The position numbers and the translations under genes are program-made. Of a stretch of DNA of 64,000 nucleotides, positions 1,898 through 64,000 are shown one piece after another. The stretch's first letter is position 1, and each line of letters begins with the position of its first letter. Origin of the DNA: a virus (taxonomy: Duplodnaviria > Caudoviricetes); the IMG/VR virus record IMGVR_UViG_3300029305_005443, positions 64,001-128,000 of that record. One strand, 5' to 3'. The notes beneath the pieces were generated by a model. It did no database searches and had not been told where the DNA came from. It saw only the letters and a list, made by a program, of their open reading frames with translations.

Positions 1898-3765
1898 ATT
1901 TGAAATTTGTTTCCGTGGAACTTTTCAATTTTATGTCATTTGAAAATGCCTTTGTTGACCTTTCGGAAAACGGTTTTGTTAAAGTTTGCGGAGAAAATAA
2001 CAACATAGTTGACAATGCAACTAGCAACGGAAGTGGAAAGAGTGCAATCTGGGAAGCAATTAATTGGTGTTTAACTGGAAATACTATTAGGGGTTCAAAG
2101 GATGTGGCAAGACAAGATTGTGAAGATGGATGCCTTGTTAACTTGATCTTTAAAGTAGATTCTGATACATATGAGATAACTAGAACAAAAAATCATATAA
2201 AATATAAAACCAATTTATTCATTAAAAAGAATGGAGAAGATGTCTCAGGAAAAGGTATTCGTGACACAGAAAAACTTCTTGTTCAATATTTACCAGATCT
2301 GGATTCCAATCTTGTAAACTCAACTATAATTTTAGGTCAAGGCCTTCCTATGAGGTTTACAAACAACACCCCGTCAGGAAGAAAAGATTTGCTTGAGGTT
2401 CTTAGCAAGTCAGATTTTATGATTTCAGATCTTAAGGATAGAGTTTCTGAGCGTAAGAATTATTTGTATGCAAAAAAGAAAAATGTTGAGAAAGAAGAAA
2501 ACAAGTATGAAACCTTGATGGAACTTTCACAAAATAGACTTGATTTTCTTAGACAGACTCTTGAAGATCTTAAAAATGAGGACTTGTCAGATTGGTCAGA
2601 TAAGAAAGAATCCATTGAACAAGAAATTTCTAAAATTGAAAATGATATGGATGATTTGTCTCACAAATATGGTCATTCATTGAACGAAGAAAAAGATTTA
2701 CTTGTTTCTAAAAAGGTTTCTTTATATAAAGATTCTACTACGGCTAGTGAGCTCAAAACAACAGAAAAGGGAATTTCTCTAAATGACATTACAGCAAGAG
2801 TTTTTGAACTACAATCAGAAATAAAGCGTGTAGAATCTGAGATAAACAAGCTCGAGTCCATTAAGGATGTTTGCCCGACTTGTGGGCAAAAAATACCAGG
2901 TGTCCACAAAGCAGATACAAGTTCTTTACACAATGAACTTGACTCATTGAAGTCAAAACTTTCGGAAAAAATTACTGAAAAAACAACTTTGTCTGAAAAG
3001 TTTGACAAAGAAATTCAGGAAATTAAAGATGAGTATGCTTCTTATATTACGGAAGTAGATAAACAAATTAATGGTGTATCTTCTGAAATTATCAAATTTT
3101 CTGACTTGCAAGATAAACTTTCAGAAAAACTTGAAGAAATTAAACTCATTGAAAACAAGATCGAATCTCATGAGTCAAATATAAAAGCTTTAGAGAATGA
3201 CATTAAGTCAGAGGTTGATAGTGAGAGTGAGTCTCACAGGATTTACATTGAAAAGAAGACAGAACGAGAAGACATTGATAAGCACCTTGAAGTTCAAAGC
3301 AGTTTTGAAACAGTACTTAAAAGGGATTTCAGAGGAATTCTTCTTCAAAATTGTATAACATATATAAATAGCAAAGCCAAGGAATATTGCAAAAAGATAT
3401 TTGATACAAATTCAATAGAATTTGCATTAGATGGAAACAATATTTCTATTAGTTATGCTGGTAAAGAATACGAATCTTTGTCTGGTGGTGAAAAGCAAAA
3501 GATTGATTTGATTATTCAATTTTCCATTAGGGATATGCTTTGTACTTACTTGAATTTTAACTGCAATTTGCTGGTACTTGATGAATTAACTGACAATTTG
3601 GATTCTATCGGGTGCAAAAAAGTAATTGATTTCATTTCAACAGAATTAACTGATATTGATAGTGTATTTATAATAAGTCACAGAACAGATCTTGAAGTTC
3701 CTTATGATAAAACTTTGACTGTTACCAAAAATAATCAAGGAATAAGTAGTTGTGTTTTACTCTAA
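1894..3765 (+). CDS. Rad50/SbcC-like ATPase (T4 gp46-like)
   Basis: Walker A NGSGKS, coiled coil with CPTCG zinc hook, LSGGE signature, LVLDE Walker B, ISH. Confidence 0.93.
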   Translation: MNLKFVSVELFNFMSFENAFVDLSENGFVKVCGENNNIVDNATSNGSGKSAIWEAINWCLTGNTIRGSKDVARQDCEDGCLVNLIFKVDSDTYEITRTKNHIKYKTNLFIKKNGEDVSGKGIRDTEKLLVQYLPDLDSNLVNSTIILGQGLPMRFTNNTPSGRKDLLEVLSKSDFMISDLKDRVSERKNYLYAKKKNVEKEENKYETLMELSQNRLDFLRQTLEDLKNEDLSDWSDKKESIEQEISKIENDMDDLSHKYGHSLNEEKDLLVSKKVSLYKDSTTASELKTTEKGISLNDITARVFELQSEIKRVESEINKLESIKDVCPTCGQKIPGVHKADTSSLHNELDSLKSKLSEKITEKTTLSEKFDKEIQEIKDEYASYITEVDKQINGVSSEIIKFSDLQDKLSEKLEEIKLIENKIESHESNIKALENDIKSEVDSESESHRIYIEKKTEREDIDKHLEVQSSFETVLKRDFRGILLQNCITYINSKAKEYCKKIFDTNSIEFALDGNNISISYAGKEYESLSGGEKQKIDLIIQFSIRDMLCTYLNFNCNLLVLDELTDNLDSIGCKKVIDFISTELTDIDSVFIISHRTDLEVPYDKTLTVTKNNQGISSCVLL

Positions 3766-4570
3766 GCCGCATAATGTAACTTATACTCAAATGGCAATTT
3801 GGATAGATGAGAACGGTCATAAACCAGATTGTGATTAGCAAATGTTATTTGAGTATCTGTATCATTTGTGCTATATATTGTCTTACAAATGGAAATATTT
3901 TAATACTTAGAAAGATTATGATGAATTTGCAATTTTTTCTGCAGGCATCCTATTTAAAAGATATGTTTAGTAGAGTCAGCTACAGCCAGTTAAGAGCAGT
4001 TTAAATTATATCAAAAAAGTTTTAAGAATATATAAAATTCAATTTCAAAAAGAATTTTTTTAGGAAAATATAACTCGTGACATTTAGGATGAAAATGTAA
4101 AATATAATATTTCTTTTGAATATGAATTGTAGGATAAATGTTCCTAGTTAAATAAAGTTGAATTTTTAGTGTATCTTCAAGATATTCCGAGAACAATTTT
4201 GGGAAGTTTGACTAACAGCATACCAAAGAAAAAACATTCTTCTGAGTTTACAAATATCTATTTAAGTTGTTTACTTACATTTCTTGATTTGATTACTCCT
4301 TCTGTTCAGGAACAAAAGCAACTCGACTCAATTCAAAGAAGTGATTATATTTATACAAATTTATACTTGTAGTTGTATAAAATTCCGGATGGGTATAAAC
4401 CTGTCTTGTATCATCTTGATAAAACATATGAGGATTATATTTTATTATTGGTGAAACGAATACGAGCTTCTATAAGAAATGATTTGAAAGAACTCTTATA
4501 TCAACATTTTCCGATAAATGATCTTTATTAGGACATATTGGAACAATTTTAGGAAAGCAATGATAACTGA
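3752..4570 (+). CDS. TAG-rich protein (272 aa in code 15), possible gp55-like sigma factor
   Basis: One frame from GTG 3752 to TGA 4568 interrupted only by 11 TAGs; fills the gap exactly; function is inference. Confidence 0.6.
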
Positions 4571-4928
4571 TAATTTGAAAAGGTTGAACACAAGAGATAT
4601 TTATTCTATGTTGTTGTTTGTCTTATTCAAGATGCAACAAATACCGGGTCAATCAACCTTAAGTGAATTAATTTATATACTTGACAAAGAATCTGTTCTC
4701 AAATTGTGTGAATTTTATGGCGGTCAGACCATAACAATTCCAACAATAGAAGATTTGGAAATATTGGTATATTGTTTAATTGTTTATAACGATGTTGTTT
4801 TAGAAAAACAAGACTTAGAAAAAGTTTTGAAGAAGTTACCTGTTGAAACCCATGTACTTAAGAAAATAAAAACAAAGTATATAGAAGTTGCAGAAACATT
4901 GGAAGAATATGAGTTCTTTTCGAGATAA
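4560..4928 (+). CDS. Mor-like transcription regulator
   Basis: LKLCEFYGGQTITIP resembles the Mor-family GG-x-x-IYIP motif. Confidence 0.5.
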   Translation: MITDNLKRLNTRDIYSMLLFVLFKMQQIPGQSTLSELIYILDKESVLKLCEFYGGQTITIPTIEDLEILVYCLIVYNDVVLEKQDLEKVLKKLPVETHVLKKIKTKYIEVAETLEEYEFFSR

Positions 4929-5136
4929 ATTAGTATCAATGTCAAAAGAATTGACAAAATACGGAAAACGTGATAAAACACAACTAATGGAAGATTATGT
5001 TTCTAAAAGATTGGAAAAATCTGTATCAACTTATTACGACCAGATGTTCTCATATATGGAAGCACTTTCTTCTTACAATACATTAAAAGTTGTGCGAAGA
5101 TTAACTAAACTGGACAACAAAAAAGATGTATTATGA
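4909..5136 (+). CDS. hypothetical protein
   Basis: ORF overlapping both neighbours. Confidence 0.6.
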   Translation: MSSFRDKLVSMSKELTKYGKRDKTQLMEDYVSKRLEKSVSTYYDQMFSYMEALSSYNTLKVVRRLTKLDNKKDVL

Positions 5137-8504: not shown

Positions 8505-9206
8505 ATGGCAGAAGTTAAAGAATTTGTTTATGATTTAGAAGAACTTGGTCAGAGGAGTGATGAGCTTGATGTTCGTAAAGAAAATAAGCTTATTAAATCA
8601 ATTGTTCTTGATTTGAAATTTACTCTCAGGGAACATAATCTTTTGGGGCTTTCTGCCCCACAAATAGGAATTTATAAGAGGGTCATAATTCTTAATTTTA
8701 ATGGTGACATTAGATCTTTTGTGAACCCACTTATAACAAAATGTGAGGGGTTATCATTTAATAAAGAATCCATTCCAAATATTCCCGATAAATTTTTCTT
8801 GGTGCCGAGGTACAATAATATTGAGGTTGCATTTGTTACACCAACTGGTAAAATCCAAAATTATAATCTTTTGGGAGTAGCGGCTCATATAATGCAGCAG
8901 CAGATTGACCTGTTAGAGGGAATTTTCCCTTCAGATGTTGGATTTGAAATTGATGAAGATTTTGAAAATGCATCTGAAGAAGAAAAAGAAGAAGTAATGC
9001 AACTTTTCCTTGAGTCTCTTGACATTAAGAAGGAAGAACTTGAAAAAGAAATTAATGAAAATGACGATCTTAAAAAGATGAGAGAAGGTATTAACTTTAT
9101 TCATTCAGTCGCACGTGGTGAAACAAAAGTTATTCCGGGATCTCTTCTTGAAATGGATAAAGAAAACAATAAAGAAGAGAAAAACGATGAACCAGATAAC
9201 ACTTGA
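8505..9206 (+). CDS. peptide deformylase-like protein, catalytically degenerate
   Basis: GLSAPQIG motif 1 and FVNP present; EGCLS and HEXXH replaced by ESIPNI and QQQIDLL. Confidence 0.75.
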   Translation: MAEVKEFVYDLEELGQRSDELDVRKENKLIKSIVLDLKFTLREHNLLGLSAPQIGIYKRVIILNFNGDIRSFVNPLITKCEGLSFNKESIPNIPDKFFLVPRYNNIEVAFVTPTGKIQNYNLLGVAAHIMQQQIDLLEGIFPSDVGFEIDEDFENASEEEKEEVMQLFLESLDIKKEELEKEINENDDLKKMREGINFIHSVARGETKVIPGSLLEMDKENNKEEKNDEPDNT

Positions 9207-9816
9207 CGGAATTATTAGAGATATTCAAGATTCCCATGTTATCAATGATGTTTAGTATCAAAAAGCTCATTTTATTGTTAGGAATTCTAACGGAAAAGAA
9301 AGCATTTTAAATCTATAGTTTAAAAAGTTTCAATGTAATGCAAAAGAAGGAGATCATTTATCAATTATTGGTAATGTGAGATCTTATTCACAAAAAATAA
9401 GTGAAACAAAAAACCATGTTACAGTTTATGTGTTTACCTATTTTGATGAAGCAGAACCAACAGAAGAAAATACTCCTCAACCAGCAACATTTTTAGTAGA
9501 CGGAAGAACTTGCAAAATAGAAGAATTAAGAAAATTAGAAAATGATAAAGTGAATATACACTTCATTTTAGCAAATAATATTTTCCAAGGAACTTCTAAG
9601 CTTAATAGTTATTTGCCTTGTATTGCTTGGGGAAAATGTGCAAAAGAAATTTCTAAACTGTAGAAAAATGACAACATTGTTATAACTGGAGAATTAAGAA
9701 GTAGGGAATACAAAAAACCACTCGGTAATGGTGAGTTTGAAATTAGAATGGCTCATGAGTTGGTTGTCACAGATTTTAGGAAGTTACAAAATGAAGAATA
9801 GCTATCTGTATCTTAA
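9187..9816 (+). CDS. ssb: single-stranded DNA-binding protein, tandem OB type (4 in-frame TAG)
   Basis: GNVRSY, YLPCIAWG and GELRSREYKK join in one frame only when TAG is read through. Confidence 0.75.
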
Positions 9817-10930: not shown

Positions 10931-12871
10931 ATGGAAAAGAAAATTTCTTTAACTAAAAACTTTGAAAATCAAATTAATAAGTTGCAAGAAAAATATGGGG
11001 AAGAATTTTCTTACCTTAATGGTCTTTCTGATGAATAGTTAAGCAACACCGATTTTCTTAATAAATTTGTTGATGCCAAAGTTGTTGCAGACGCCTCTAT
11101 AGATGGTAATGCCAATATAAAAAGAAAAGATATTGTTACCCTTATGAAAGAAATGGGTAAACCTGAGCAGAAACTTCTAGCATATCATAAAATTTATCTT
11201 GAATTAAATCAAAAGTATGGGTTTAAGACTGCTAATGAGTGGTTTGAAAATGAATGGAATAAGCAACTTTATCTTCACGATGCAAACACCTCTAGTTTTA
11301 TTCCTTATTGCTATGCATATGATTTGAAGAGGTTGGCAGAAGAAGGATTGTTTTTTACAGATATTCCAAATCCTCAACCTGCAAAACATCTTCTTACATT
11401 TGTTGATTTTGTTAAAGAATTTATATGTTACACTTCAAATAGAACTTCTGGTGCAGTAGGACTTCCAAATGTAATTCCATATATGTATTATTTTTGGAAA
11501 AAAGATATTGACTCTGGTTATTGGAAAGGGGATCCAAAACAATACGCAATGCAAAATATCCAGAGGTTTATCTTTGCTGTTAATCAGCCTTATGTGAGAG
11601 ATGGGGTTCAATCTGCATTTACGAACACTTCTGTGTTTGATATGGAATATTTGATTGCTTTGTTTGGCGGTTCTGAGTTTCCAGATGGAACTTATATGGT
11701 TGATGAACTTCAGGGCATTATGGACTTCCAAAAGTGGTACATGGAAGAAATGTCAGACATTAGAGCAGTCAATATGATGACGTTCCCTGTTAACACCATT
11801 AATCTTCTTACAAATGAAGATAAGACAGATTTCATGGACAAAGAATTTGCAGAATGGGCTATCAGGCACAATATGAAGTGGAATGATAGTAATATTTTTG
11901 CAGATAACAGTGTTACAAGTCTTTCAAACTGTTGCAGACTTAAATCCAATATAAAAGATCTTGGATATTTTAACAGTATTGGTGGTACTAGTTTAAGAGT
12001 TGGGTCAGTTAAGGTTTCAACAATAAATTTAGCAAGATTGGCATTGAAGCATAAAACAGAAAAAGGATATTTAACTGATCTTAGAAAGATTACAAAATTA
12101 AATCTTCAAATGCTCGATTGTCAAAGAGACATTATAAAGAAAAATATCAGTCGTGGTTTGCTTACAAACTACGATTCTGGATTAATTGATTTGTCCACAC
12201 AATATTCCACTATTGGTGTTATGGGTATTTATGAGACCATGAAGACTTTTGGGTATGTGTATAAAGATGAATTCGGAAATACCTTCTACAAAGATGAAGC
12301 ATTTGAATTTGGTAAGAAAATATTCGATGCTATTCATCAAGTAAAATCTGAATTTTCAGTTGATAAGGATTATGCAATCAATCTTGAAGCAGTTCCTGGA
12401 GAAGCATGCGCTGTTAAATTCTTGGCTGCTGATTCTATGTTATACCCTGAAAAAGTTTGTAATGACCTTCCTCTTTATGGTAACCAGTTCATTCCTCTTG
12501 GCATTAAAACCACAATTCAAGAGAGGGTTAGAATTGCTGCTGCATTTGATGAATATTGCTCAGGCGGCTCTATTTTACACTTAAACATTGATGCACCATT
12601 TTCAAACTATGAACAAGCCTATTCAATGACAAAGTACATTATAAATAAAGGTGTTTCTTATTTCGCTTTTAACCCAACTCTTTCCGTATGTAAAAAGGGT
12701 CATACTTTTTACGGAAATACTTGCCCAATTTGTGGTGGTTCTGTTTATGAAAAATTTACAAGAATAGTTGGGTTTTTCACACCAATAAGTTCTTGGGGAA
12801 GTGAAAGAAGAAGAGAGTTCAATTTAAGAGAATGGCACCCATTTGAAGATGTCAATGATGTTCTTAAGTAA
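10931..12871 (+). CDS. nrdD: anaerobic (class III) ribonucleoside-triphosphate reductase
   Basis: YLHD, PYCYA, SNCCRL, CxxxH/CPICG and TRIVGF glycyl-radical motif; N-terminus restored through TAG 11036. Confidence 0.93.
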
Positions 12872-15905: not shown

Positions 15906-16184
15906 ATGCCAAGATACATTGATGCAGATGAGCTTATGGAACAGATGGAAAATGCTTGTATGGGGGTTATGAGTGGGTGCGACCCATTTAATTAGCCATT
16001 GAAAGTTCTTGAATCTGCCCCAACCGCCGATGTGGTAGAGCGTAAGAGGGGGAAGTGGGTCAGAAAAGAAATTCACTCGAACTGGAGCGATTGGACGGAA
16101 TATACTTGCTCATTATGCGGGGCAACTTTTAAAGGGCTATATAAGGCGAACTTCTGTCCAAATTGTGGAGCAGAGATGGGATAA
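15906..16184 (+). CDS. RYIDAD-family zinc-finger protein (TAG 15993 read through)
   Basis: MPRYIDAD N-module joins PTADV and CSLCG...FCPNCG only through TAG. Confidence 0.8.
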
Positions 16185-16978
16185 AGGAGAGAAGATGGCT
16201 GATTTGATGACATTTCCTAATACTGTTGAAGAATTTATGGAGAAGTACAAAATTGTTGACAAGGAGCAAGTATATACAAACGGAGCAGAATTAGTCCCGA
16301 TTTTCCGAATGAAACAATGGTTTGAGCATTTACCTACAGCAGATGTTAGGGAAAATATCCACGCTCATTGGGAAGATTGGTCTTTTTTAGGATGGGATAT
16401 GGAAACCCATTGGCGAAGAAGATGTTCTAATTGCCTTTGTGAGAGGGAGGACGATAATGAAGAAAAGGACACCCCGTTCTGCCCGAACTGCGGAGCGGAA
16501 ATGACAGGGATGAGAGGTGAACAAAATTGACAATATGGATTTACTCTTTTGATGACGGAACTGAACTTAAACTGATTGATGTGGGATTTTCCACGGCAGA
16601 GCTTTGGAAGTTAGCAGAACTGCATGGCAAGTGTTCCATTTCGCACAAGCGGATATGAGAAGAGGAATAAGATGCAGAGATATATAACAGTTGAGGATGC
16701 TCTAAATTCAATGTGCGACAGTTGTGATGCTAAACACGCTATTTGCGCTCATTGTCCGTGTAAACACTATGAAGCCGTTGAGTGTACTCCTTCTGCCGAT
16801 GTAAGAGAGAACATTCACGGAAGATGGATTGTTGATGAGGATGGGAACCTTGAATGTTCTGTGTGCGGGCATCATGGAGTTGGGGATCTGTATTGCGAAC
16901 GATGCGGCGCACGAATGGACGAATCTGAAGGACCGACAATGGAAGAATATATGTATGGACAAGAAGGGAGCGAAGAAG

Positions 16979-17332
16979 ATGGGAGTTTGTGACGATCTAA
17001 TCAGCAGACAGGAGGCGGTTGCTTATGCTATTTCCGGCCTTACAAGGGAGATTGACGGTGAGAAATGGATAAGGGTGTCGGAAGTACGTGAAAGCATTAA
17101 GGCACTGCCGCCCGCACAGCAATGGATACCAGTAACGGAGCAGTTGCCGAAACTTGGCGAAAAGGTTTTGGTATCAACTAAAAATACTGTATTTACGCAA
17201 GTGTTTAAGCGTATTTACGGCACACCCGATAGATGGGGGTGGGAGCATCACTCCGTCAAGAAGGTAACTGCTTGGATGCCACTTCCGAAGCCGTATAAGG
17301 AGGGCCTGGGCAATGCCAACGAGATTGATTGA
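16979..17332 (+). CDS. DUF551-like protein
   Basis: WIPVTEQLP...VTAWMPLPKPY. Confidence 0.75.
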   Translation: MGVCDDLISRQEAVAYAISGLTREIDGEKWIRVSEVRESIKALPPAQQWIPVTEQLPKLGEKVLVSTKNTVFTQVFKRIYGTPDRWGWEHHSVKKVTAWMPLPKPYKEGLGNANEID

Positions 17333-17457
17333 AGCATTAAAAGACAAGACAGCAGAAGAACAATGTGACTTCATAAGATGGCTTGTGCTTGATTATGCTA
17401 TGTGTTTTACAGACTCAAGAGAAGCAGTGATTGAATGGTTGAAGGAAAGGATCGAAG

Positions 17458-17745
17458 ATGACGAGATTGGTGAGACACATCAAGGTTGAAGATGCCATCA
17501 AAGTGGCAGACGAAGAGTGTGGTGAGTTCCGGGGGATTTTCGGTCAGATAAAAGAACGGTTAGAAACCATGCCCACCACAGATGCAGTGGAAGTGGTGAC
17601 ATGCAAGGATTGTGTGTTTCTTGAAGTGCTGAACTCTGAATAGTATTATGCACGATGCAAATGGCATGGGAGACTATTTCCGAGTTTTGGCAACCCAGAC
17701 ACAAGGTATTGGTTTTGTGCTGACTGTCAGAGGAGAGAAGAATGA
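17458..17745 (+). CDS. zinc-finger protein (TAG 17641 read through)
   Basis: CKDC...C...FCADC is complete only with readthrough; ATGA overlap with the next gene. Confidence 0.75.
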
Positions 17746-22904: not shown

Positions 22905-22905
22905 T

Positions 22906-23265: not shown

Positions 23266-23278
23266 GGAAAGATAAGTT

Positions 23279-26204: not shown

Positions 26205-26205
26205 T

Positions 26206-47053: not shown

Positions 47054-47144
47054 CACCTCCTTCATTCTCCCTCCTTTGTATATTGATTAGAGAGAACTAA
47101 TCCCTGCCAGCATACCAGGTATAGTATGCTTTTTGGAGATTTTA

Positions 47145-49838
47145 ATGCCACAACAATACATTGATAACGTTATATCAAAAGACGGAACTGAATATGGATT
47201 AAGACCTGCTGACGGAACAGTCACTTCTGCTAAAATTTCTACAAGTGCAGTTGTAACAGGTAAGATTTCTGCAAATGCTATCACTACTGCAAAGATAGCA
47301 ACCAGTGCAGTTACAGAATCAAAAATAGCAGATGGAACTATTACCTCTGCTAAATTTGCACCAGAAGTTATTTCTTGGATTTCTGATGTTACTGGCGGTG
47401 TTGAAAGTATCAACACTTATCAAGGGGCCATCACTCTTTCAACAGGTGTTGTACCTGGTGCATTTACACTTGGGGATGGCTACACTACACAAACAATATC
47501 AATCAATGGACTTGGTACCGCTGCTTTCTCTTCGGCAGATTCATTCCTTTCAAGTGCTTGTTATGATCTTGTCCTGGGTCAATCTGTAAATATGTCAGAA
47601 GTTCTTTCTGCATATGATGCTGGCAAACTTATAAGGGTCGATACAACAAATGTTTAGTTCGATCCAAAAGTAAATGACACTGGTGTTCACGACCTTAATT
47701 TCTTAAGTAAAAGTGGGGAAACTTCCATTGCCTATATGATTTTTAACCATGGAGTTAATTCTTCTAACTATATTGCAGATCTTAAGTGGGATACTACTTA
47801 TGCTTCAAGCAATGGTTGGTCATATATAAATGGTAGAGATTTAATTAATTCTTATTCGCCTGCATTTACTGGCACTCCGACAACTCCTGATATTACAAAT
47901 CTTTCCACAAGTACTTCTCAAATTGCAAATGCAGCTTTTGTTCAAGCAGTTGTTCAAGATAAAGTTGCTGCTGCTGTTTCTTCTGCCATGTCTTCTATAG
48001 CAACAGATGTTATTGTTGCATTTGAATATGGAAGTTAGTTAACAAGTGCAGAAGTTACTGGTGCATTAAGTGCTTTTGATGAAGGCAAGATTGTTAATTG
48101 TAAAATAAATTCTAATTTATCATCTGCTATTTGGCAAGGAACTGTTACCACACTAGCAAGTTATAGTGCAGCTGCAAGTGTTACTTCTATGCAATTCCTT
48201 GGTACAATTGGTTCCACACCAAATTATAAAATTGTTCAGGTCAATTGTACTCAATCTGCTTCTACAACTTGGCAGTATTCATTATTTGATATTCCAGAAA
48301 TTAGTGCAGTTTTAAGCACTGCTAAGACTGAAGTTTCTTTAACCGTTACTGGTTCTTCTGTTTCTACCACAATAACAGAAAGTTAGATTGAAAGTTATTA
48401 TGAGTCTGTTTAGGATTGTATCTTTACTGGTTCTGATGGGTATTCCTATCAAGTGGCTTCTTATAACGGCACAGCTCACACTGTGAACCTTGTTGCCGTT
48501 CAACCGGATGGAACTTTGAGAACTGTTGCACTTAGTGCTGCTGATAACAACACTGCATTAAGTGGAACACTTAAGCTTATTCAACCAACTTTTGATGTTG
48601 TGTATGGAGAAGCAGTTGATGCGGCGGAGATTTTAAACGCAATTTCATCTGGCAGATAGATTAGGTGTAAAATAGTTGATACCGACCTTGAAACTACATA
48701 CTATTATTATTTGTCTAATTATCAACTTGATGGGTCTAGTTTATACGGTCTTCAATTTATTGATTTATTCCCTAATTTACTGGAAGAAGTTGTTTTCTAT
48801 ACCTGGAATTCAGATACCAACTCCAACAATGGTTGGGATTCTGAGGTTATGCATCTCGTCACCCCTAACTCTCCAACTTTTACAGGAACTCCAAAAGCAC
48901 CAACAGCTTCTACAAGCACTAGCACAACACAGATAGCTACCACTGAGTTTGTTCATAATGTAGCTTCTTCTGATACATATAAAGAAGCTTATATTGTAAC
49001 TTATGGTGATACTCTTGATTATGACACTATTGTTGCTAAAAGAACTGCTGGTAAAATTGTTTTATGCAAGTTGACTTCTAGTATAAGTCCTGGTATACCA
49101 GCAGATACTTTCCTTCAACTGTATACTTATAATTATACCCCTAGTGGAGGAAGTGCTGGGTACAGTATACTATTTGCAGGTTATATTATTAGTGGAAATT
49201 ACAGAGTAACTTTTACTTGTCATGGTTCCACAAAGTCTTGCGACACATGGAGTCACAGTATGACTTTCCTGGCGCCTATTGCTTCACCTAACTTTTCTGG
49301 AACTCCAACTGCTCCAACTGCTTCTGCAGCAACTAATAGTACACAAATAGCTACAACTGCCTTTGTAAAGACTGCAATCAGTGGGATAACTCATCCAACA
49401 GAAGTTTTCATTATTGATTACGGCGATGAGAGTAAAGCCAGTTAGCTTTCCGCAGCTTATGCAGCAGGTAAGAGTATTTGGTGTAGATATACAGAAGAAG
49501 ATGAAGAAGATGGAGCTTGGTCTAGTACACATCTCATCCCTCTTACTAATTATACCTATGAGGAAGATATCGGTGAATATTATATTTTCTCAATATTTAT
49601 GACCCCATAGTATTAGGAAGATGAAGTGTGGTCAATACAACTTCTTGACGGATATTCTTGGGAAGAAATAAGAAAGGTATCTTTTGCTTAGTAGAGTGTT
49701 GCTCTTGCAACCTACAACGGGAACAGTTACATTAAAGTGGGCTCCAGCGGTCTTTCTAGCGGAACAAAGAATATTTATATTCAATCTACTCAACCATACA
49801 CCAATAATGTTGGTGACATTTGGATTGATATTTCTTAA
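47145..49838 (+). CDS. long tail-fibre protein (897 aa in code 15)
   Basis: Five ORF-track fragments in one frame; three SPxFTGTPxxP...QIA..FV fibre repeats; VTSAKIA repeats. Confidence 0.85.
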
Positions 49839-49852
49839 TTTAAAGGAACAAA

Positions 49853-52282
49853 ATGGCTTTAAATGCTAACTCAAAAGTTGGTTCAGACATTTAGATGTTT
49901 GATGTAAGACCATATAGTGAGTATAAAAATGCTGGATGGAAAGAAGGATTTGAAACTTCTTGGACTGGTTTTACTTCAAATGAATATTATACTAACACTA
50001 TGTTGGATTAGAATAACTATTCTGGAACTTCTTCAATGTCTTCTGGTAATGCAGTAAATTCTGAACGAACATTTAGTGGGTGGAAATTCTTATACAAACC
50101 ATATAGTGAAACACAAATTCAATGGGTTCTTCTTTATATTTTTGTAAGGAATGTTACCCCAGGAAGTAATTTCTTCCATAGAAATTGCAACCTTTATGAG
50201 TTAAGTGTTAACGGAAGCAAAGTTGTTTCTATGAAGAGCACCAACAATGATAATGGAGATCAGGTTCAATTATCAACTGGTGCTCTTACCAACAAAAGAT
50301 ATACTTCAATAGGTGGCCAATCAACCAAATATGGTCAATTGGTACCTATTGATAGTAATGTTGGTTATAACAAAACTCAAGTGAATGCTGGAACTACTTA
50401 GGTAGTTTTCATCGGTAAGTTTACTGTAACTGGTGGTGTTCAAGGAACAGCAAATAAAAAATTTAATATTTCCTTTAAATATGCCAATTACAATTATCTT
50501 TCATATGCAAGCGGAATAAAAGCAATAGCTAAAATTCCTAGTAAATGGAGCACTTCAGTTAACTGGAGTAGTGGTATAAAGACTGCATTTACAAATGGTA
50601 CTTTTGCATATAATCCAACTCCTATATTAACCCCTGCAGCTCCAACTGTAGCAACTATTTCAAATGGCTATGTTTCTTATAACCAGACAATAACTGCAAC
50701 TGGCGGTAAATATGTAAAGGTCATTAACCCAAATCAAGGAAATAATTTTTAGTGGCTTTCTTCAGTAGGAACATTTAATTTATCTTCTTTGACATTTACT
50801 TCGTCTCCTGATAATACTTCAGCTACACCAGATCACATAACTGCGAGAGCTACTATCTGGGATGAGTACAAAGATAACTGGTATTCAGAATCAAATAATA
50901 TAAATGTATAGTATGCTCCTAAAGATGTTCAATTTACAGCTAAAAGTGCTTCAGCAACCGGCATAACTATCACTTATAAAAGGCATGCTTCTACTGGTAC
51001 AAATGGTTATTTCAATCTTCTTTATGTAACTTGCTCAACAAGTTCTGATAGAGGAGAATTAAGCTTCCCATTCTATAGCAGAGATATTGAAATTCAAGTT
51101 TCTAGAAATGGTTCTATTGCTATGATTTATGCAGAAGGAACTTCTTTGGGAATGAGTCTTAACACTGAAGGGGAAACCACCCTCACATTTACACCTGCTT
51201 GTTATGTATCAGGAAATGGATTAGTTATAAGTTCAGAAACATTCACTTATAAATTGAGTGACACAAGACCTCAATTTGAAATTCTTGGAGCAACTTTGGA
51301 TTATCCAATAGATGCAAATGGAATTTCTCATATAATTTATAATGGGTCCTATTATAAATATGAACCTTGTGTTACTTTCTCTTTGTCTTATGACTCAAAT
51401 GTAACTACAGTAAAGGATATCTCAGCTTTTGTCACAAATAGATCTGATTTATCTACTAATGCAACTGTTCTTTCTTCAACATATTATTATAAGCCTGCTA
51501 TTTTATCAAATGGCATTGGTAAAATATTAATACCAGAAGTTATGGGAAGAGGACAGAGTTACATACATATTCAAGTAATTTCTGCACCTACTTCTAGTTT
51601 ATCCACAGAAACAGTTTCAAATGTAGTTGTACCAGTTTCTTGTTCGTTAGAAGATTACACCACAAATAAAATTAAAGAGGGCGAATTAGTTGATAGTGCA
51701 GTAATAAGAAATAAAATTTTAAGTTATGCACAAGCTAAAATTTCTAACTATGAAACAATAATAAATTCTGTTAACAATACATTTACTTCTAATGGTGCTC
51801 TTGTTTGGGATTAGGGGCATTTGAAGATTTCAGAAGGATTGCTTGTAACTACCAGTATAAAAGAATTGTTGACTGCATTAGAACAATTCTATACAGAAAT
51901 AACTTATAATAATCCATATAAAGTTTATTATAAAGGGGAACTGTCTTCAGGACAAACTAATACATTGGTCTCTCCGTTAGTGGATGACACTCTGGGAGGT
52001 TTCATCAATTACAACAATGGTATTGTCACTGTCTCCGAAGATTCAAGCAAGATCAAATTCTATGATAATTCTGTGCAATATCCAAGTGTAGTTAATTAGA
52101 ATGTATAGAATATTGAATTGAATGAGGATAATTAGTTTGAGTTCGATGAAAATAGTTGGTCTTGGGTTTTATCGTCATTAGACGATTTAATTATAGCCAG
52201 TTAGGTAACAATAACAAGCAATCAGTTAGAAGTTTTTAATAATTATCAAAAAGCAATTTTATATATTGTATCTTTATTATAA
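49853..52282 (+). CDS. large structural protein (809 aa in code 15)
   Basis: Single frame interrupted only by TAG. Confidence 0.78.
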
Positions 52283-52951: not shown

Positions 52952-52974
52952 ACTATTAAGAATGTGAGTTGTCA

Positions 52975-55026
52975 ATGACAAACATAGATGAAAAACAATT
53001 TGAAGGTTTATCCAGAAAAGAAAAGGAATATGCCTTAAAAATTTTAGAAGAATTTTCAAGAACTGGAAAATCAGATACATATAACGATCTGATTTATGCT
53101 GATTATGCGGAAGTTCCAGTTGATGTTGAAACATTCTTGAGGGATAAAAGGTACCTTGGAACAGGGTTGACTAATGATGATGGGAAATTTACTGTTTTCC
53201 CATATTGGATAGATACTTTAAAAAAGATTTTTCCTTCTAACATTGATACTGCATATAATACTTTAGTTTTAACTGGTGGAATTGGTCTTGGCAAATCATT
53301 GGTTGCTGTACTCTGCCTTCTGTACTTATTGTATAGAATGCTTTGCTTGAAGAATCCATATGTTTTCTATGGGTTACAACAAATAGACCACATTACTTTC
53401 TCATTTATAAATATAACTCTTGATGCAGCTAAGGGTGTGGCCTGGGCAAAGTGCCAGGAATTGCTGAAAAGTAGCCCGTGGTTTTTAGAACACGGCACAT
53501 TAAGCAAATCTCAAGATCCGGAATGGTCTCCTAACGGGGGAATTGAACTGATCTATGGTTCTTTGCCAAGGCATGTTTTAGGTAGAGCTGTTTTTTGCTC
53601 ATTTGAAGACGAAATTAGCTTTTAGCCAAATCAAGATGTAGAAAAACAAAAACAAAAAGCAAAAACTCTTATAAGCACTGTTGACGCTCGTATGCAATCG
53701 AGATTTATGAAGGGTGAAAAATTACCCACATTAAATATTATTGCTTCTTCTAAAAGGACAGAACAGTCATTCCTTGAAACATATATTGATATGAAAAAGA
53801 GGAATGAGTCAAAAACTACTTTAATTGTTGATGAACCTCAGTGGGTTATTCGTACTGATAAAGCAAGTTCAAGAACTTTTAATGTAGCAGTTGGAAATAA
53901 ATTCTTAGACTCAGAAGTTCTTCCTTTGAGTGTCACAGAACAAGAATTGCAATTATATAGGGATAAAGGATTTAAGATTCTTCAAGTTCCTTTTGGTTAT
54001 TACGAGCAATTCTTAGACGATATTGATATTGCTTTAACTGATATTGCTGGTATTTCTACAACAAATAGTCAGAGTTATATTTCTGGTGTTAGATGGGCTA
54101 AATGTCGAAAAGAAGGACTTGAAAACCCATTTAATAAAGAGATTTTAGTAGTTGGCAATGCACCAGATGATAAAGCCCAATATAGTGATTTCTTTGATTT
54201 ATCAAAAGTTCCTTCAAAATATAAGTATAAACCATTGTATATCCATCTGGATATGTCTCTTTCTGGGGACAAAACTGGTATTGCAGGCACGTGGATAATC
54301 GGTAAAAAACCACATGAAGAAGGACAAGTAGAATCTAAAGAATTATATTATCAACTTGCATTTTCTGTTGCTATAAAAGCACCTAAGGGCTATCAAGTTA
54401 GTTTTGAGAAAAATAGACAATTCATCTATTGGTTGAGAGACCAAGGATTTAAGATAAAAGGTGTAAGTTACGATACCTTCCAATCAGCAGATTTAAGTTA
54501 GCAATTACAAGCTCATGGATTTAATTGTGAAACAATTTCTGTTGATAGGTTACAAGATAAAATCTGCAAGCCTTATCTTGTTTTTAAGAACGCAATCTAC
54601 GAAGAACGATTAATTGTATATAATACAAAGTTGCTGACGGATGAGATTATTGGTCTTGTTAGAGATGGGAATGGAAAAATAGACCACAGCCCTTCTGGCA
54701 TAAACTCAAAAGATACTGCTGATGCTGTTTGCGGAAGTTTATATAATGCTTCACAACACGCTGAAGAATATGCTTTTGATTATGGTGAAGATTTAGATCT
54801 CATCAAAAAAGCAAATGATGCTTCTTCTGCTATGTCTTTGGAAAATAAAAAGCAAATTGTTTTAGATATGGAAGAAGAGCTCAAAAACTTTAGATTATTT
54901 TAGAATCCATTTGTAGTACAATAGGCACAACAACAATCTAAACCTACAGGGTTGGATTTTGGGTTTGGTAAAGCAGTGCCTTATGGTGGACAATCTTATG
55001 TTCAAGATGGTATGCTCATTTGGTAA
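52975..55026 (+). CDS. terminase large subunit (4 in-frame TAG)
   Basis: TGGIGLGKS Walker A, FEDE Walker B, HLDMS, DTFQS and KDTADA nuclease motifs in one frame. Confidence 0.92.
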
Positions 55027-55036: not shown

Positions 55037-56938
55037 ATGACTGATATTGAAACTACTGGATCTGCTTTTGCTGAAGATCCATTGTTATATGGTAAACAAA
55101 TAGAAACTGTTCCAAAGCCAGAAAAGACTTTTGGTGTTGACACTCACGACACCTTATTGACAGATTTGGCTTCTGTTCAGGCTTCTCAAATTGATATGTC
55201 TGAAATAAACAAATTTACTAACATTTCAGACAACAGAAATGAACTTTATTCTTTGATTGACCAAATGGGTGCTGATAGTAGGATTGCTGCTGCACTTGAA
55301 ATCTACGCAGAAGATAGTACCGAGAAAAATGAACAAGGTCAGATTGTTTGGGCAGAATCTAGTGACGGTGATGTTGCAAAATATATTAATTTTCTTCTTA
55401 AGTCATTAAATATTGATAAAAATATTTATAAGTGGGTTTATTCACTTTGTAAATATGGAGATCTTTATATCAGAATGTTTAGAAAGTCTGATGTTGAAGA
55501 TGATTTGTTTGATGAAGATGATGATGAGAAGAAAGCCCTTAATGAAGAAATAAAAGTTAAAGTGTATCCAAAGAGTGATAAGTTAGTTCATTATGTTGAG
55601 ATGGTTCCTAACCCAGCAGAAATGTTTGAATTAACTAAATTTGGTTCCACTTATGCATATATATAGGCTCCATCTACTCTTGCAGCGGATTATAACTATA
55701 CTGGTGAAGAAGCTTGGCTAACAAACGCACAGAATAGATATTTATATAAATTTAAGAGAGATGATATTTATATCTATCAACCTACTGAGTTTGTTCATGC
55801 TTGTTTGGAAGACAGCCCAACAAGATTTCCTGAAGAAGTTAGAATATTTAGGACAGATGCCGATTATGAAGATGACAAATGTAGTTTGAATTATTAGGTA
55901 AGGAGAGGTTCTTCACTTCTTTCTAATATATTCAAAATCTGGCGTGAACTCATGCTTCTTGAGAATTCTGTTCTTCTTAACAGAATTACAAAATCCTCTA
56001 TTGTTAGAATGATTTAGGTTGAAGTTGGTGATATGCCGGCTGAAAATGTAAAGCCTCATTTGTATAGCATTAAATCTATGATTGAATAGAAAGCAGCTAT
56101 AAGTGAAGGTAAAAAATTATCCGAATATACTAATCCAGGTCCTATTGAAAATAATGTTTATGTGCCAACCAGAAACGGTCAAGGTGTCATAACAACAAAT
56201 TAGATAGGTGGAGATGTTGATGTTAAGTCACTTGTTGACTTGGATTATTTCCTTGATAAATTGTATGGTGCATTGAGAATTCCAAAGCAATACATGGGTT
56301 CAACGGACGATTCCACTGGGTTTAATGGTGGAACTGCATTGTCTCTAATTTCTGCTTCCTTTGCAAAAATGGTTAAGAGGATTTAGTCTACAATGAAGCA
56401 GACCATTACTGATATGATTAATGTTTTATTGTATGACAAGCAGCAGACTCAATACATAAATAAATTCTCAATCAATATGGTAGGTCCAATGACTGAAGAA
56501 GATAAGAATCGTCAGGAAAATCTTAGTTCTGAGATTCAAGTTGCTTCTGATGTTATGAATTTACTTGGTGATATTGATGACCCAGTCATTAAACTTAAAC
56601 TTCTTAAAGCTTTACTTTCAAGTTGCATTACAAATGAGGAAGTCATAGAGCTCATTCAAGAACAAATTGATGAACTTGAAGCAGAACAAGAAGGAAGTGA
56701 AGAATCATCTTCTGAAGAACAAGACATTAACATTGATTTTTCAGATGAGGGTGAGTCATCGTCAAGTGATTTTTCTGGTGGTCTTAATGACTTTGCCTCT
56801 GATGGATTGGATCTTGGCAATGAAGCCCCATCTGTTGAGACTTCAGTTCCTGAAGAGAATGGTGGGGAAGAAACTGTTTCCGGTCTTCCAAGTATGAATG
56901 AAATAGGATTAGATTTCGCAGATACAACTCAATTTTAA
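55037..56938 (+). CDS. portal protein, T4 gp20-like (6 in-frame TAG)
   Basis: CKYGD, IWRELMLLE, VEVGDMP, DYFLDKLYGALRIP, KRI*. Confidence 0.9.
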
Positions 56939-56970: not shown

Positions 56971-57441
56971 ATGGCAATAACAAAACAAGATTGTTTAGTA
57001 CTTCTCAATTCCTTAAAAAATAATGGGATTGATGTTAGTGAGATGTCTAAGAAAGCAGCTCTTTCTAAAGATGTTTCATTAGAAGTAGTTGATTTCATAA
57101 ACAAAAACAGACCTTTTGAGGTTAGTAAGTTTTATGAAAAATTAAGAAAATCTTACAATGAAAAAAAGTCTCAGTTATACAAGCAAATAGTTAAAAGTGA
57201 TGAGGTTGATACACCTAAAGACATAATTATTACTTTATCTTCTTTAGGTCTTCAAATAGTTTTATTTGCAAAGACTGTTGATGACTAGCAAATGTTTTTA
57301 AGACAAGCTAGGTATCAAGAACTTACAGGTTGTTTGTATAAATACAGCATAACATATGATTTGTTACCTGCCATACAGCTCCTTAGGTTATTTAAAATGG
57401 ATTTAAAAGCATTTGAATATCTTAACAGCAAGGATAAATAA
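56971..57441 (+). CDS. hypothetical protein (TAG 57286)
   Basis: Read-through ends in a TAATG overlap with the next gene. Confidence 0.7.
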
Positions 57442-58286
57442 TGCAAGAAGAAGAAATTCTTGGACAAAAAATAGATGGGCATGGGTTAGGATATGTCCTC
57501 TCAAAAAGAGACATAAGGGACTACAAACTCAATAAAAAAGTTTGTGGTTCCGTTTCTTTACCTGAAAGTTTTGAGGTACCACATTCTTAGATAAAAAATT
57601 AGGGACAAGTTCAAAGTTGTGTTGCATTTTCTGTTGCCGAAGTAATGGAAACATTAGATGACAACGGAACAAATTATTCAACTGCTTGGATATACGGGTA
57701 CCGACCCACTAGTTACTACCAGGGGCCTGGTATGATAGCTAGTAATGCGCTTAAAACAGTTAATTTAGTTGGTGCCATTAAAAAGGAAGTTCTTCCTGGC
57801 AATTATGAGATGCCAAAAGCAAAACAAATTGTCCAGAAAAATCTTTCATCATACAAAGAAAAAGCCAAAGAAGATAAAATTGTTGCTTATGCAAGATTAA
57901 GAACAATGCAAGAAATAAAAGAAGCCATTTACACAACTGGTACTCCTGTTGTGGTGTGTATTCTTTGTACTGATTTGAAATTGGATGAGCATTATATTGC
58001 TTACATTCCTGATGGAGCAACTTCCGGTCACGCCGTTGTGTGCTATGGGTGGAATGAGTTAGGATTGCTCATACAAAACTCCTGGGGCGATAAATGGGGA
58101 GACAACGGTTGTTTTATACTTCCATATGAACACCCATTTAGTGAAGCATGGATTCTAACAAAGGATCCGGATGTAATAATTAAGCCATCTGCTTTTGCAT
58201 TTAGAGAAATTATTGTAAATTTCTTTAAGTCATTAACAATGTTCTTAAAAGGATTGTTTAAATCTAACGAAGGTAAGGGAAAATAA
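57441..58286 (+). CDS. papain-like C1 cysteine peptidase (2 TAG)
   Basis: IKN*GQVQSCVAFS, GHAVVCYGW, QNSWG. Confidence 0.9.
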
Positions 58287-62284: not shown

Positions 62285-62295
62285 AGGAAATATAA

Positions 62296-63567
62296 ATGGG
62301 CACAATTGCTAAAGTAACAGCGGGTGGATCCACCCACTTAATAGCATCAACTGCATATGGAACTTGCCCTACAGCTGCTAGCACGGCTTCAAAAGTGGCA
62401 ACAATATAGGATAGTCAAGATTTTACTCTTGTGAAGGGTGTGACTATTCATATTAGATTTACTTATTCTAACACTTCTTCTAACCCGACTTTGAATGTAA
62501 ACAGTACGGGTGCAAAACCTCTGTATTTGTACGGAACTTCTACTTCTGACAGAACAGCAGTAGGAACTACGGTCAGTGAAAGCTGGAAAGATGGTGCAGT
62601 TGTTGCTCTTACTTACGATACTACAATAAATACTTCTGGTTGTTGGATTGTAAATGATTATAGAGCATGGTATGCACAAAATGTTGGCTATACCCCGGAT
62701 GATTCTTCTTGGAATGTAACCGATGTTGCTGGTGCTCTTGACGACTTAAAAGCTAATGCTTCTTCTGCCGCTGCACCGGTGTATATAGAATATGGAGATG
62801 AAGACGCTTATTCTAAAATCTCTGCTGCTTTAACTGCTGGAAAAAGGGTTTATTGCATATATACAGAAGAAGATTCTGCTTATGGCTCTACTGATACGGC
62901 ATACCTCCCTCTTACTTATTGGTATCACGAGCCTGGTGAAGCGGATTATTATTATTTTCAAGTAGTTAGGGCAGAATCTTTAGCAGGTGGAGTTTATCAA
63001 TCTACTAATGAATTATGGACTGTTGAGGTAAGTGACAGCGACAGTTGGTCTGAGCTTGAGAAGCTTCCTTGGGGTGGAACCTATACTGGTGTTTCTCCAA
63101 TAAGTGTAAGTGGAAGCACAATTAGCCATGTAAATAGTGGTGTTAGTGCTAGTACCTATACTGCAGCTTATAATGATAAAACTTCTTCTTGGTATATACC
63201 AACAATAACGGTTAATGCAACAGGTCATATAACTAGTGCTGTTACTTATGGTACTGCTCTTAGTTTCTCTACTTTGGACAGCAGATTTACAAACCGAGGT
63301 TATTATAAACCTGGCAATGGACCTTGGGTTCTTCAGTCCACATCTACTTCTTCTACAATAACCTTTTCTAATCCCCTCAGCACAGGGTTCTATGTTACTG
63401 ACATAAAGGCTTGGGATGCAGACGGTGTGCCAGTAATAATTGACTGGTCTATGACTAGTGGTGGCTACATTCCTTCAACCAGCTCGGCAACAGTAACTGT
63501 TTCTGTTTCTGAAGCATATGGAAAAGCAATCAATTATATTCCAGTTATCACTACAATGAACAAATAA
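62296..63567 (+). CDS. tail-fibre-like protein (TAG 62407)
   Basis: YGTCPTAASTASK, PTLNVNSTGAK, ITVNATGHIT motifs. Confidence 0.8.
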
Positions 63568-63578
63568 GGTCCTATATA

Positions 63579-64000
63579 ATGTATTCTAATGGAACAGAAA
63601 TAAAATTAGTAACAGGTTCAGAAGTTTTTGGCGATGGAAACCACGAATCTACTTAGAATGTTCTTGATGCTTTATTCCAAGCTAATCCTTCTGGTAAAGA
63701 TGTTCTTGACATTGGCACTGGAACTGGTGTTCAAGCAATATTTGCTAAAAAATGGGGAGCAAATAGAGTTGTTGCAGTTGATATAAGTTATCCAGCAATT
63801 TTAACTGCAAGATAGAACTTTCAAAGAAATAATGTTGAGATAGAATCTAGATTAAACATTTATAATGAATATTTAGATTTTAAAGCAGATATTATTGTTG
63901 CTAATTTATCCCCTCACGAAGTAAGAGAATTTTTACCATTAGCACAATCGAGTTTAAAGGACAATGGGATTCTGATTTGTTCTTGGATGAATCCTGCAGA
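63579..64000 (+). CDS. PrmA-like SAM-dependent methyltransferase (2 TAG; 3' truncated by window edge)
   Basis: FGDGNHEST*, VLDIGTGTG, AVDI, AR*NFQRNNV, DIIVANL; absent from ORF track. Confidence 0.8.

What the first reader, a model, noticed from the sequence alone, without database searches (positions are those of the whole stretch)
3752..64000. Genome-wide amber reassignment, TAG = Gln (code 15)
Seen: essential genes (terminase, portal, NrdD, SSB, fibres) are interrupted only by TAG, and read-through restores ATGA/TAATG gene overlaps. Four internal controls indicate Gln: the papain oxyanion-hole Gln in IKN*G..SC (57600); MT*KS for the MTQKA motif (41017); WE*IG (42443) versus paralog WEQIG; TEEK* versus the adjacent TEEKQ duplication (21684). 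I found no convincing gene that requires TAG as its stop. Known: code-15 phages occur in gut microbiomes. Here the host signals point to Firmicutes.
Basis: partly seen in the sequence, partly recalled or inferred. Interest (0 to 1): 0.8.

Follow-up and report, generated by a model that had tools for sequence, protein, structure and literature searches.

The report
Phage that reads TAG as glutamine
This 144-kb gut-type phage reads the stop codon TAG as glutamine throughout its genome and carries its own oddly shaped amber-suppressor tRNA; the recoding is real but is of a kind already described in gut phages.

Summary
Both the observation and the interpretation hold. The window is bases 64001-128000 of a 143,914-bp IMG/VR phage record.

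**Read-through is real.** Reading TAG as sense raises greedy ORF coverage from 0.813 to 0.949 and mean ORF length from 163 to 252 aa. TGA-sense and TAA-sense readings give much smaller gains. Three standard-code relatives gain almost nothing from TAG-sense reading.

**The residue is glutamine.** I ran a Codetta-like test over 89 TAG columns, aligned to 78 related loci and five whole relatives.
- It recovers all 61 sense codons correctly and calls TAG = Gln (Q 81.7, E 46.4, K 24.1, S 17.7).
- Q wins 9975 of 10,000 bootstraps.
- TAG sits on invariant Gln in the portal, NrdD, the terminase and the papain-type oxyanion hole.

**The decoder is unusual.** One phage tRNA has anticodon CUA (27749-27836). 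It has a 21-nt variable arm, a U1.U72 mismatch and G73. That shape raised a Ser rival, which the alignments reject. It belongs to a family of at least 28 distinct long-arm CUA tRNAs in viral contigs.

**Distribution and relatives.** TAG is sparse in replication genes and dense in structural genes. Relatives use standard, TAG=Gln or TGA=Trp codes, as reported for the 'Agate' clade.

Verdict: a new member of a known kind. Another window of this scan noted the same recoding.

The parts
27749..27836 (+). Amber-suppressor tRNA, anticodon CUA. It has a 21-nt variable arm, a U1.U72 mismatch, C2-G71, G10-C25 and discriminator G73, with no encoded CCA. It lies 5 nt upstream of tRNA-Ile(UAU).
   Evidence: ARAGORN. 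Rfam tRNA model, 50.8 bits, 27749-27836. Member of a family of 28 distinct sequences with a supported variable-arm helix.
33194..33268 (+). Ordinary tRNA-Gln(UUG): A1-U72, G73, short variable loop
3752..4570 (+). The most TAG-dense gene: 11 TAG in 272 codons. It is a conserved full-length protein of unknown function, next to the TAG-free SbcCD-like genes at 848-3765.
   Evidence: Homologues of 29-38% identity over about 165-265 aa in all five whole relatives. No Pfam, PHROG, PDB-sequence or fold match.
9115..9816 (+). SSB gene, with a TAG inside the SSB domain (domain at 9493-9777)
10931..12871 (+). Anaerobic ribonucleotide reductase NrdD. Its single TAG is at codon 36 (11036-11038).
   Evidence: Pfam NRDD 1.4e-86. 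The TAG column is Q in 10 of 10 homologues.
40588..43528 (+). Three fibre-like genes (40588-41091, 41060-42139, 42179-43528) with TAGs at 40774, 40882, 40933, 41017, 41165, 42386 and 42443. WE*IG at 42443 matches WEQIG in the paralogue.
   Evidence: The TAG at 41017 lies 43 nt before the next predicted start, so termination there is not excluded.
47076..52282 (+). Tail-fibre gene (47076-49838, 11 TAG) and an 809-aa neighbour (49853-52282, 10 TAG)
52969..55026 (+). Terminase large subunit, 4 TAG. Codon 511 is Q in 73 of 77 relatives.
55037..56938 (+). T4-type portal, 6 TAG at codons 210, 287, 327, 351, 389 and 450
57441..58286 (+). Papain-family (C1) cysteine peptidase. Its TAGs at 57588 and 57600 both align to Gln; the one at 57600 is the oxyanion-hole position, six residues before the catalytic Cys.
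16000..32000 (+). TAG-poor block of small genes, the tRNA cluster and an RNA ligase. It holds 4 TAG in 3482 codons and includes the suppressor tRNA itself.

Best explanation
The phage uses a code in which TAG means glutamine, while TAA and TGA remain its stops.

Shown: TAG occupies sense positions in about half of the genes, and these positions behave in evolution exactly like CAA/CAG positions.

Inferred mechanism:
- The phage's own tRNA(CUA) is made from the TAG-poor tRNA cluster.
- A host enzyme charges it with Gln, most likely GlnRS, acting through U35, G73, the unpaired 1:72 position and G10-C25. This is how E. coli glutaminylates Trp- or Ser-derived amber suppressors.
- The charged tRNA then competes with host RF1 at UAG.
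- Replication genes carry almost no TAG and structural genes carry many. Full-length late proteins can therefore only be made once the suppressor has accumulated, as in the published timing model for recoded phages.
For: - ORF coverage and length gains are specific to TAG and absent in standard-code relatives.
- TAG positions are uniform along genes: 11 in the last 10 codons against 8.7 expected.
- All 165 + strand models end in TAA (99) or TGA (66).
- The Codetta-like test calls TAG = Q, with 61 of 61 sense-codon controls correct. Bootstrap support is 99.75%.
- The plurality-residue profile of TAG columns (Q .22, E .15, K .12, N .11, S .09) mirrors CAA and CAG, not Ser codons (S about .42).
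- TAG falls on invariant Gln in the portal, NrdD, the terminase and the papain-like peptidase.
- There is a single CUA tRNA in the genome. Its family keeps G73 in 28 of 28 members, never has G-C at 1:72, and keeps G10-C25 in 28 of 28.
- The genome has no phage release factor and no Glu/Gln synthetase, so a host enzyme is implied.
- All five Clostridia-type genomes with the nearest NrdD encode a true GlnRS above the TIGR00440 cut-off.
- Published work shows that Trp-derived and Ser-derived amber suppressors are glutaminylated when U35 and the 1:72 and 3:70 pairs suit GlnRS. The same review lists C2-G71 as a SerRS antideterminant (PMC9976931).
- TAG density is 1.1-1.6 per 1000 codons in the replication and tRNA blocks (DnaB, PolA, TAGT, RNA ligase) and 8-10 per 1000 in structural blocks.
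Against: - There is no protein-level evidence.
- The tRNA's long variable arm plus G73 is the shape SerRS recognises.
- Its C2-G71 and C3-G70 differ from the E. coli tRNA-Gln set.
- The host, and therefore its charging pathway, is not identified.
- TAG is not absent from early-looking genes (NrdD, SSB), so the early/late split is a gradient and not a switch.
- About 8 TAGs could still act as terminators.
Confidence: 0.9

Rival explanations
1. TAG is decoded as serine. The suppressor tRNA has a class-II shape (long variable arm, G73), and SerRS, which ignores the anticodon, would charge it.
For: The variable region is 21 nt with a helix. The discriminator is G73. The anticodon arm matches 13 of 14 positions of the relatives' tRNA-Ser(UGA). 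In-genome paralogue alignments put S opposite TAG 11 times and Q only twice.
Against: - Those paralogues are S/T-rich fibre and LRR proteins.
- In the controlled test S scores 17.7 against 81.7 for Q, and wins 5 of 10,000 bootstraps.
- The mean S-score of TAG columns (0.20) equals that of Gln codons (0.15-0.16), not Ser codons (1.4-1.5).
- No conserved TAG column is Ser.
- The tRNA has C2-G71, a reported SerRS antideterminant, a 4-bp D stem and a 7-nt D loop, all unlike the phage's own tRNA-Ser.
Confidence: 0.03
2. The reassignment is incomplete. UAG is ambiguous: RF1 terminates at it early in infection and at a few gene ends, and it is read as Gln only once the suppressor is abundant.
For: TAG density rises from the replication and tRNA blocks to the structural blocks. 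No phage factor against RF1 was found. Six TAGs lie within four codons of a TAA/TGA, and several lie just before the next gene's start. This is the published model.
Against: TAGs near gene ends are not significantly enriched: 11 against 8.7 expected in the last 10 codons. No gene needs TAG as its stop. This refines the main explanation rather than replacing it.
Confidence: 0.35
3. TAG encodes another residue: Glu, Lys, Trp, Tyr, Leu or pyrrolysine.
For: E and K are the runners-up. ARAGORN labels any CUA tRNA 'Pyl'. The anticodon arm also resembles tRNA-Trp.
Against: E and K are the usual substitutes for Q and score the same way in CAA/CAG columns. W, Y and L are never the plurality residue in the conserved columns. 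Changing C35 to U removes the main Trp determinant (PMC9976931). I did not search for Pyl genes.
Confidence: 0.03
4. The TAGs are damage: a decaying or mis-assembled genome with nonsense mutations.
For: None beyond the presence of in-frame stops.
Against: Only one of the three stop codons is affected. There are 233 sites. The frames stay conserved across the TAGs in 89 tested columns. A matching suppressor tRNA is present. Relatives show the same pattern independently.
Confidence: 0.01

Closest known systems
TAG=Gln ('code 15') phages of gut microbiomes: crAss-like and Lak phages, and the gemstone clades of Borges et al. (10.1101/2021.08.26.457843). Metaproteomic proof in PMC9523058.
   Same: In-frame TAG at Gln positions, a phage-encoded CUA tRNA, hosts predicted to use the standard code, TAG enriched in structural and lysis genes, and no dedicated synthetase in most genomes.
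   Different: This is a different lineage from the Bacteroidota-infecting crAss and Lak phages: a T4-type portal whose closest cultured relatives are Bacillota phages at 26-33% identity. There is no peptide evidence here.
'Agate' clade of Borges et al.
   Same: Genome size (154 +/- 27 kb reported; 143.9 kb here at 94% completeness). Recoded structural modules scattered around the genome. Close relatives using codes 11, 15 and 4.
   Different: Membership is not tested, because no Agate sequence was available. Two Agate genomes were reported to carry RF2, and this genome has none.
Phassvirus (phAss-1, 135,976 bp; PMC10607447)
   Same: A phage of about 136 kb with TAG=Gln, suppressor tRNA genes, no synthetase, and a predicted host in Clostridia.
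   Different: phAss-1 has three suppressor tRNAs and 41 recoded ORFs. It is not among the 30 best portal matches in the phage collection, so it is not a close relative.
E. coli amber suppressors glutaminylated by GlnRS: the tRNA-Trp-derived suppressor, and a tRNA-Ser amber suppressor switched to Gln by changes at 1:72 and 3:70 (reviewed in PMC9976931)
   Same: CUA anticodon with U35, G73, a weak or open 1:72 pair and G10-C25. The Ser-derived case shows that a long variable arm does not prevent charging with Gln.
   Different: Those are laboratory mutants. Here it is a natural, conserved phage family whose pairs 2:71 and 3:70 differ from E. coli tRNA-Gln, and its charging has not been assayed.

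Membership tests
TAG=Gln recoded phage (code 15 type) | In-frame TAG inside conserved genes; read-through restores full-length homologues | tested here: met
   Portal, terminase, NrdD, SSB, fibre and peptidase genes. HSPs span 89 TAG sites.
TAG=Gln recoded phage (code 15 type) | TAG columns align to Gln in homologues | tested here: met
   Q 81.7 against the next best 46.4. 61 of 61 control codons correct. Bootstrap 99.75%.
TAG=Gln recoded phage (code 15 type) | TAA and TGA are still stops | tested here: met
   All models end in TAA (99) or TGA (66). TGA-sense and TAA-sense readings give small gains only.
TAG=Gln recoded phage (code 15 type) | Suppressor tRNA with anticodon CUA | tested here: met
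   Window 27749-27836
TAG=Gln recoded phage (code 15 type) | Gln found in peptides at TAG sites | not testable with these tools
   Needs proteomics
Agate clade (Borges et al.) | Placement within the clade on the terminase tree | not testable with these tools
   No Agate reference sequences were held
Agate clade (Borges et al.) | Genome of about 154 +/- 27 kb, scattered recoded modules, and relatives using codes 11, 15 and 4 | tested here: met
tRNA-Gln identity (E. coli GlnRS set) | U35, G73, weak 1:72 pair, G10-C25 | tested here: met
   CUA anticodon, G73, U1.U72 and G10-C25. Across the family: G73 in 28 of 28, no G-C at 1:72, G10-C25 in 28 of 28.
tRNA-Gln identity (E. coli GlnRS set) | G2-C71 and G3-C70 | tested here: not met
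   C2-G71 and C3-G70 here. Across the family 2:71 is G-C or G.U in 26 of 28, but 3:70 is C-G in 22 of 28.
tRNA-Gln identity (E. coli GlnRS set) | Class-I shape with a short variable loop | tested here: not met
   The variable region is 21 nt here and 21-24 nt across the family, with a helix.
tRNA-Ser identity | Long variable arm and G73 | tested here: met
tRNA-Ser identity | G2-C71, a Ser-type D arm, and Ser at the decoded codon | tested here: not met
   C2-G71, a 4-bp D stem and a 7-nt D loop. TAG columns are not Ser.

The most novel reading that the evidence does not exclude
The amber codons are decoded by an undescribed natural class of suppressor tRNA. It has a class-II-shaped body (a 21-24-nt variable arm with a conserved helix and a UGAAG-type loop) joined to a Gln-type acceptor end (G73, a 1:72 pair that is never G-C, G10-C25, U35). 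At least 28 distinct members are spread over many phage contigs. A TAG-recoded relative even carries a long-arm tRNA with the normal Gln anticodon UUG. The extra arm would then be a phage device, for example to keep other synthetases or host tRNA-targeting defences off the suppressor, rather than a Ser determinant. I found no description of this in three full-text searches. That is weak evidence of novelty, and another note of this scan flags the same tRNA.
Probability: 0.3. Interest if true: 0.6.

Novelty: new member of a known kind. Interest (0 to 1): 0.3.

Why it matters
For annotation, the genome must be translated with TAG = Gln. Under code 11 its portal, terminase, fibres and about half of its genes fall apart.

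Biologically it adds one well-controlled case of a large T4-portal phage, probably of gut Clostridia, to a family in which standard, TAG=Gln and TGA=Trp codes sit side by side. That makes the family useful for studying how codes switch.

The one part that may be new is the decoder. It is a conserved long-variable-arm CUA tRNA, and its sequence alone would suggest Ser while the proteins say Gln. That makes a clean test case for how tRNA identity is set in non-model hosts.

Tried and rejected
- **Serine reading.** I took it seriously because of the tRNA shape and because in-genome paralogues put S opposite TAG 11 times and Q twice. I rejected it after the controlled column test.
- **Closer relatives.** The codon-level CAG/TAG comparison with near relatives was therefore not done.
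- **Phage-encoded helpers.** A search for a release factor or a Glu/Gln synthetase found none.
- **The 11-TAG gene (3752-4570).** I tested it as a possible late transcription factor. It has no Pfam, PHROG or PDB-profile hit. The AlphaFold model is weak (pLDDT 66, all helical), and Foldseek against the PDB gave nothing below E = 0.4. Its function stays unknown.
- **Origin of the suppressor tRNA.** A BLAST against five relatives found no homologue. A nearest-isotype comparison did not decide between a Ser, Trp or Gln origin.
Full report
**Where the window lies.** The window is bases 64001-128000 of a single 143,914-bp IMG/VR virus record, rated 94% complete. The genome has 35% G+C, and nearly all genes are on the + strand.

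- I built a greedy map of non-overlapping ORFs of at least 60 aa over the whole genome. It covers 0.813 of the sequence under code 11 (241 ORFs, mean 163 aa) and 0.949 when TAG is read as sense (182 ORFs, mean 252 aa).
- Reading TGA or TAA as sense gives only 0.837 and 0.872.
- The same calculation on three relatives that use the standard code changes their coverage by at most 0.016, so the gain is not a by-product of removing a stop codon.
- The + strand models hold 233 in-frame TAGs in 86 of 165 genes, or 5.3 per 1000 codons. That is 14% of all Gln-like codons, alongside CAA 1020 and CAG 394. The window alone holds 83 TAGs in 33 of 77 genes.
- All four quoted motifs are at the stated coordinates.
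- Of the 25 junctions with a 4-nt or 1-nt gene overlap, 12 follow a gene that contains TAG.

**Which amino acid?** The suppressor tRNA made this a real question (see below), so I tested it rather than assuming Gln.
- I gathered 80 loci around portal homologues from viral contigs and five whole relatives of 140-156 kb.
- I aligned every protein of this genome, with X at TAG, to them by tblastn. For each codon I summed BLOSUM62 scores of the aligned residues over columns.
- The method assigns all 61 sense codons correctly.
- For the 89 TAG columns it gives Q 81.7, E 46.4, K 24.1 and S 17.7.
- Q wins 9975 of 10,000 column bootstraps, and S wins 5.
- The plurality-residue profile of TAG columns (Q .22, E .15, K .12, N .11, S .09) is that of CAA (Q .28) and CAG (Q .36), not of Ser codons (S about .42).
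- Among TAG columns with at least five homologues and at least 80% one residue, seven are Q, one is K and none is S.

Individual sites say the same.
- In an alignment with 120 full-length portal homologues (49-75% identical), portal codons 351, 389 and 450 are Q in 120, 114 and 120 sequences.
- The single NrdD TAG is Q in 10 of 10 homologues from Bacillota genomes.
- Terminase codon 511 is Q in 73 of 77 relatives.
- Both TAGs of the papain-family peptidase align to Q in PDB 3ois and cathepsin B. One of them lies six residues before the catalytic Cys, which is the oxyanion-hole Gln position.
- TAG codons are thus not depleted from functionally fixed Gln sites, which would be expected if another residue were inserted.

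**Is TAG ever a stop?** No gene needs it.
- With TAG as sense, every model ends in TAA (99) or TGA (66).
- TAG positions are spread evenly along genes. Eleven lie in the last 10 codons against 8.7 expected.
- Six TAGs lie within four codons of a TAA/TGA, and a few sit just before the next gene's start. These include 4529, 4550, 14459 and 41017 in the window.
- Termination at those sites cannot be excluded.

**The decoder.**
- All 13 tRNA genes lie between 12.9 and 33.3 kb of the window. One has anticodon CUA.
- The Rfam tRNA model places it at 27749-27836 (50.8 bits).
- It has a 7-bp acceptor stem with a U1.U72 mismatch, C2-G71, C3-G70 and discriminator G73. It has a 4-bp D stem beginning G10-C25 and a 7-nt D loop, and a variable region of 21 nt that forms a helix.
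- A long arm plus G73 is what SerRS reads, and LeuRS and TyrRS want A73. Ser was therefore the obvious rival, and in-genome paralogues at first seemed to agree (S 11, Q 2). Those are S/T-rich fibre and LRR proteins, and the controlled test above rejects Ser.

The tRNA is not a one-off.
- An exact search for its anticodon arm found 74 viral loci.
- ARAGORN finds CUA tRNAs in 61 of them, 49 distinct. Thirty-three of these are 86-95 nt long.
- Twenty-seven of these plus the window's tRNA align as one family. The variable-arm helix is supported by some compensatory change and carries a UGAAG-type loop.
- The family has G73 in 28 of 28 and G10-C25 in 28 of 28.
- Its 1:72 pair is never G-C or C-G: U-A 9, A.C 7, U.U 5, A-U 5, G.U 1 and U.G 1.
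- One member lies on the same 233-kb contig as a TAG-recoded portal relative whose TAGs align mostly to Q (L172 and L029).
- The TAG-recoded relative G003 has a class-I CUA tRNA, also with U1.U72 and G73. It also has an 88-nt long-arm tRNA with the ordinary Gln anticodon UUG.

A published review supports the Gln reading (PMC9976931).
- GlnRS reads U35, the 10-25 pair, the 1-72 and 3-70 pairs and the discriminator.
- The amber suppressor derived from tRNA-Trp is glutaminylated.
- An amber tRNA-Ser, which has a long arm, switches from Ser to Gln after two acceptor-pair changes.
- C2-G71 is listed there as a SerRS antideterminant.

The genome encodes no release factor and no Glu/Gln synthetase, so a host enzyme must do the charging. 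All five Clostridia-type genomes holding the nearest NrdD homologues carry a GlnRS above the curated TIGR00440 cut-off. That GlnRS charges this tRNA is inference. It was not shown.

**Distribution of TAG.** The blocks below are in whole-genome coordinates; window position = genome position minus 64,000.
- The replication block at 40-56 kb holds the DnaB-type helicase, family-A polymerase and two TET-associated glycosyltransferases. It has 8 TAG in 5051 codons.
- The small-gene and tRNA block at 80-96 kb, with an RNA ligase, has 4 TAG in 3482 codons.
- The structural blocks reach 41 TAG in 5131 codons (104-120 kb) and 26 in 2577 (128-136 kb).
- The SbcCD-like genes (window 848-3765) have none.
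- This fits the published idea that recoding delays late proteins until the suppressor is made. It is a gradient and not a switch, because NrdD and SSB also carry TAG.
- The densest gene (window 3752-4570, 11 TAG in 272 codons) is a real protein conserved in all five relatives. I could give it no function.

**Relatives and host.**
- The portal family is large: 3229 proteins at E <= 1e-10.
- Among the fetched relatives, G003, L029, L066, L013/L014 and L012 have in-frame TAG aligned mostly to Q.
- G004, L076, L008/L009/L011 and others have in-frame TGA aligned to W.
- G001, G002 and G005 use the standard code, and TAG ends only 3-13% of their long ORFs.
Membership could not be tested.
- The nearest cultured portals are from Streptococcus, Bacillus and Listeria phages at 26-33% identity.
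- NrdD is 58-63% identical to genes in genomes and MAGs of Oscillospiraceae, Lachnospiraceae, Clostridiaceae, Erysipelotrichaceae and Bacilli from gut and rumen.
- A Bacillota host, probably a gut Clostridium, is likely but unproven.

**Novelty.** TAG=Gln phages of standard-code gut bacteria, with phage suppressor tRNAs and no synthetase, are well described (10.1101/2021.08.26.457843; PMC9523058; PMC10607447). This is a new member, not a new kind. Another window of this scan noted the same recoding (e1-5823510). The long-arm suppressor family is the only part I could not find described. It is flagged separately in this scan (e1-5823511) and deserves an aminoacylation test.

Noticed in passing
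Relatives G003, G004, G001/G002/G005 (loci L093-L131) and L008-L090: One portal family holds TAG=Gln members, TGA=Trp members (in-frame TGA aligned to W: 11 of 17 in G004, 8 of 16 in L076) and standard-code members.
   Followed up: partly
G003:C1:88862-88949 (in L097): An 88-nt tRNA with the normal Gln anticodon UUG, A1-U72, G73, encoded CCA and a long variable arm, in a TAG-recoded relative. That relative's CUA tRNA (92251-92324) is class I with U1.U72.
   Followed up: partly
window 3752-4570: This gene has 11 TAG in 272 codons, about eight times the genome average. It is conserved in all five relatives and predicted to be all helical.
   Followed up: partly
window 31255-32910 and 33027-33110: A DUF2828/DUF7788 (Ro60/TROVE-like) protein with no TAG, next to a weak Rfam YrlA (Y RNA-like) match (29.9 bits, below the gathering score).
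   Followed up: no
L005:14391-15251 and L005:16213-17061 (genome 52391-53251 and 54213-55061): Two paralogous TET-associated glycosyltransferases in the TAG-free replication block. They suggest glycosylated, hypermodified DNA.
   Followed up: no
L008/L009, terminase and capsid-region genes: In relatives, the terminase match is split by about 1.25 kb, and the homologue of genome gene 141505-143040 by about 0.85 kb. This suggests introns or inserted elements in their structural genes.
   Followed up: no
window 57441-64000 and genome 128000-141500: About 20 kb lies between the gene downstream of the portal (56971-57441) and the genes that directly follow it in relatives. It holds the papain-like peptidase, a 660-aa protein and BspA-type LRR proteins with 5-7 TAG each.
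   Followed up: no
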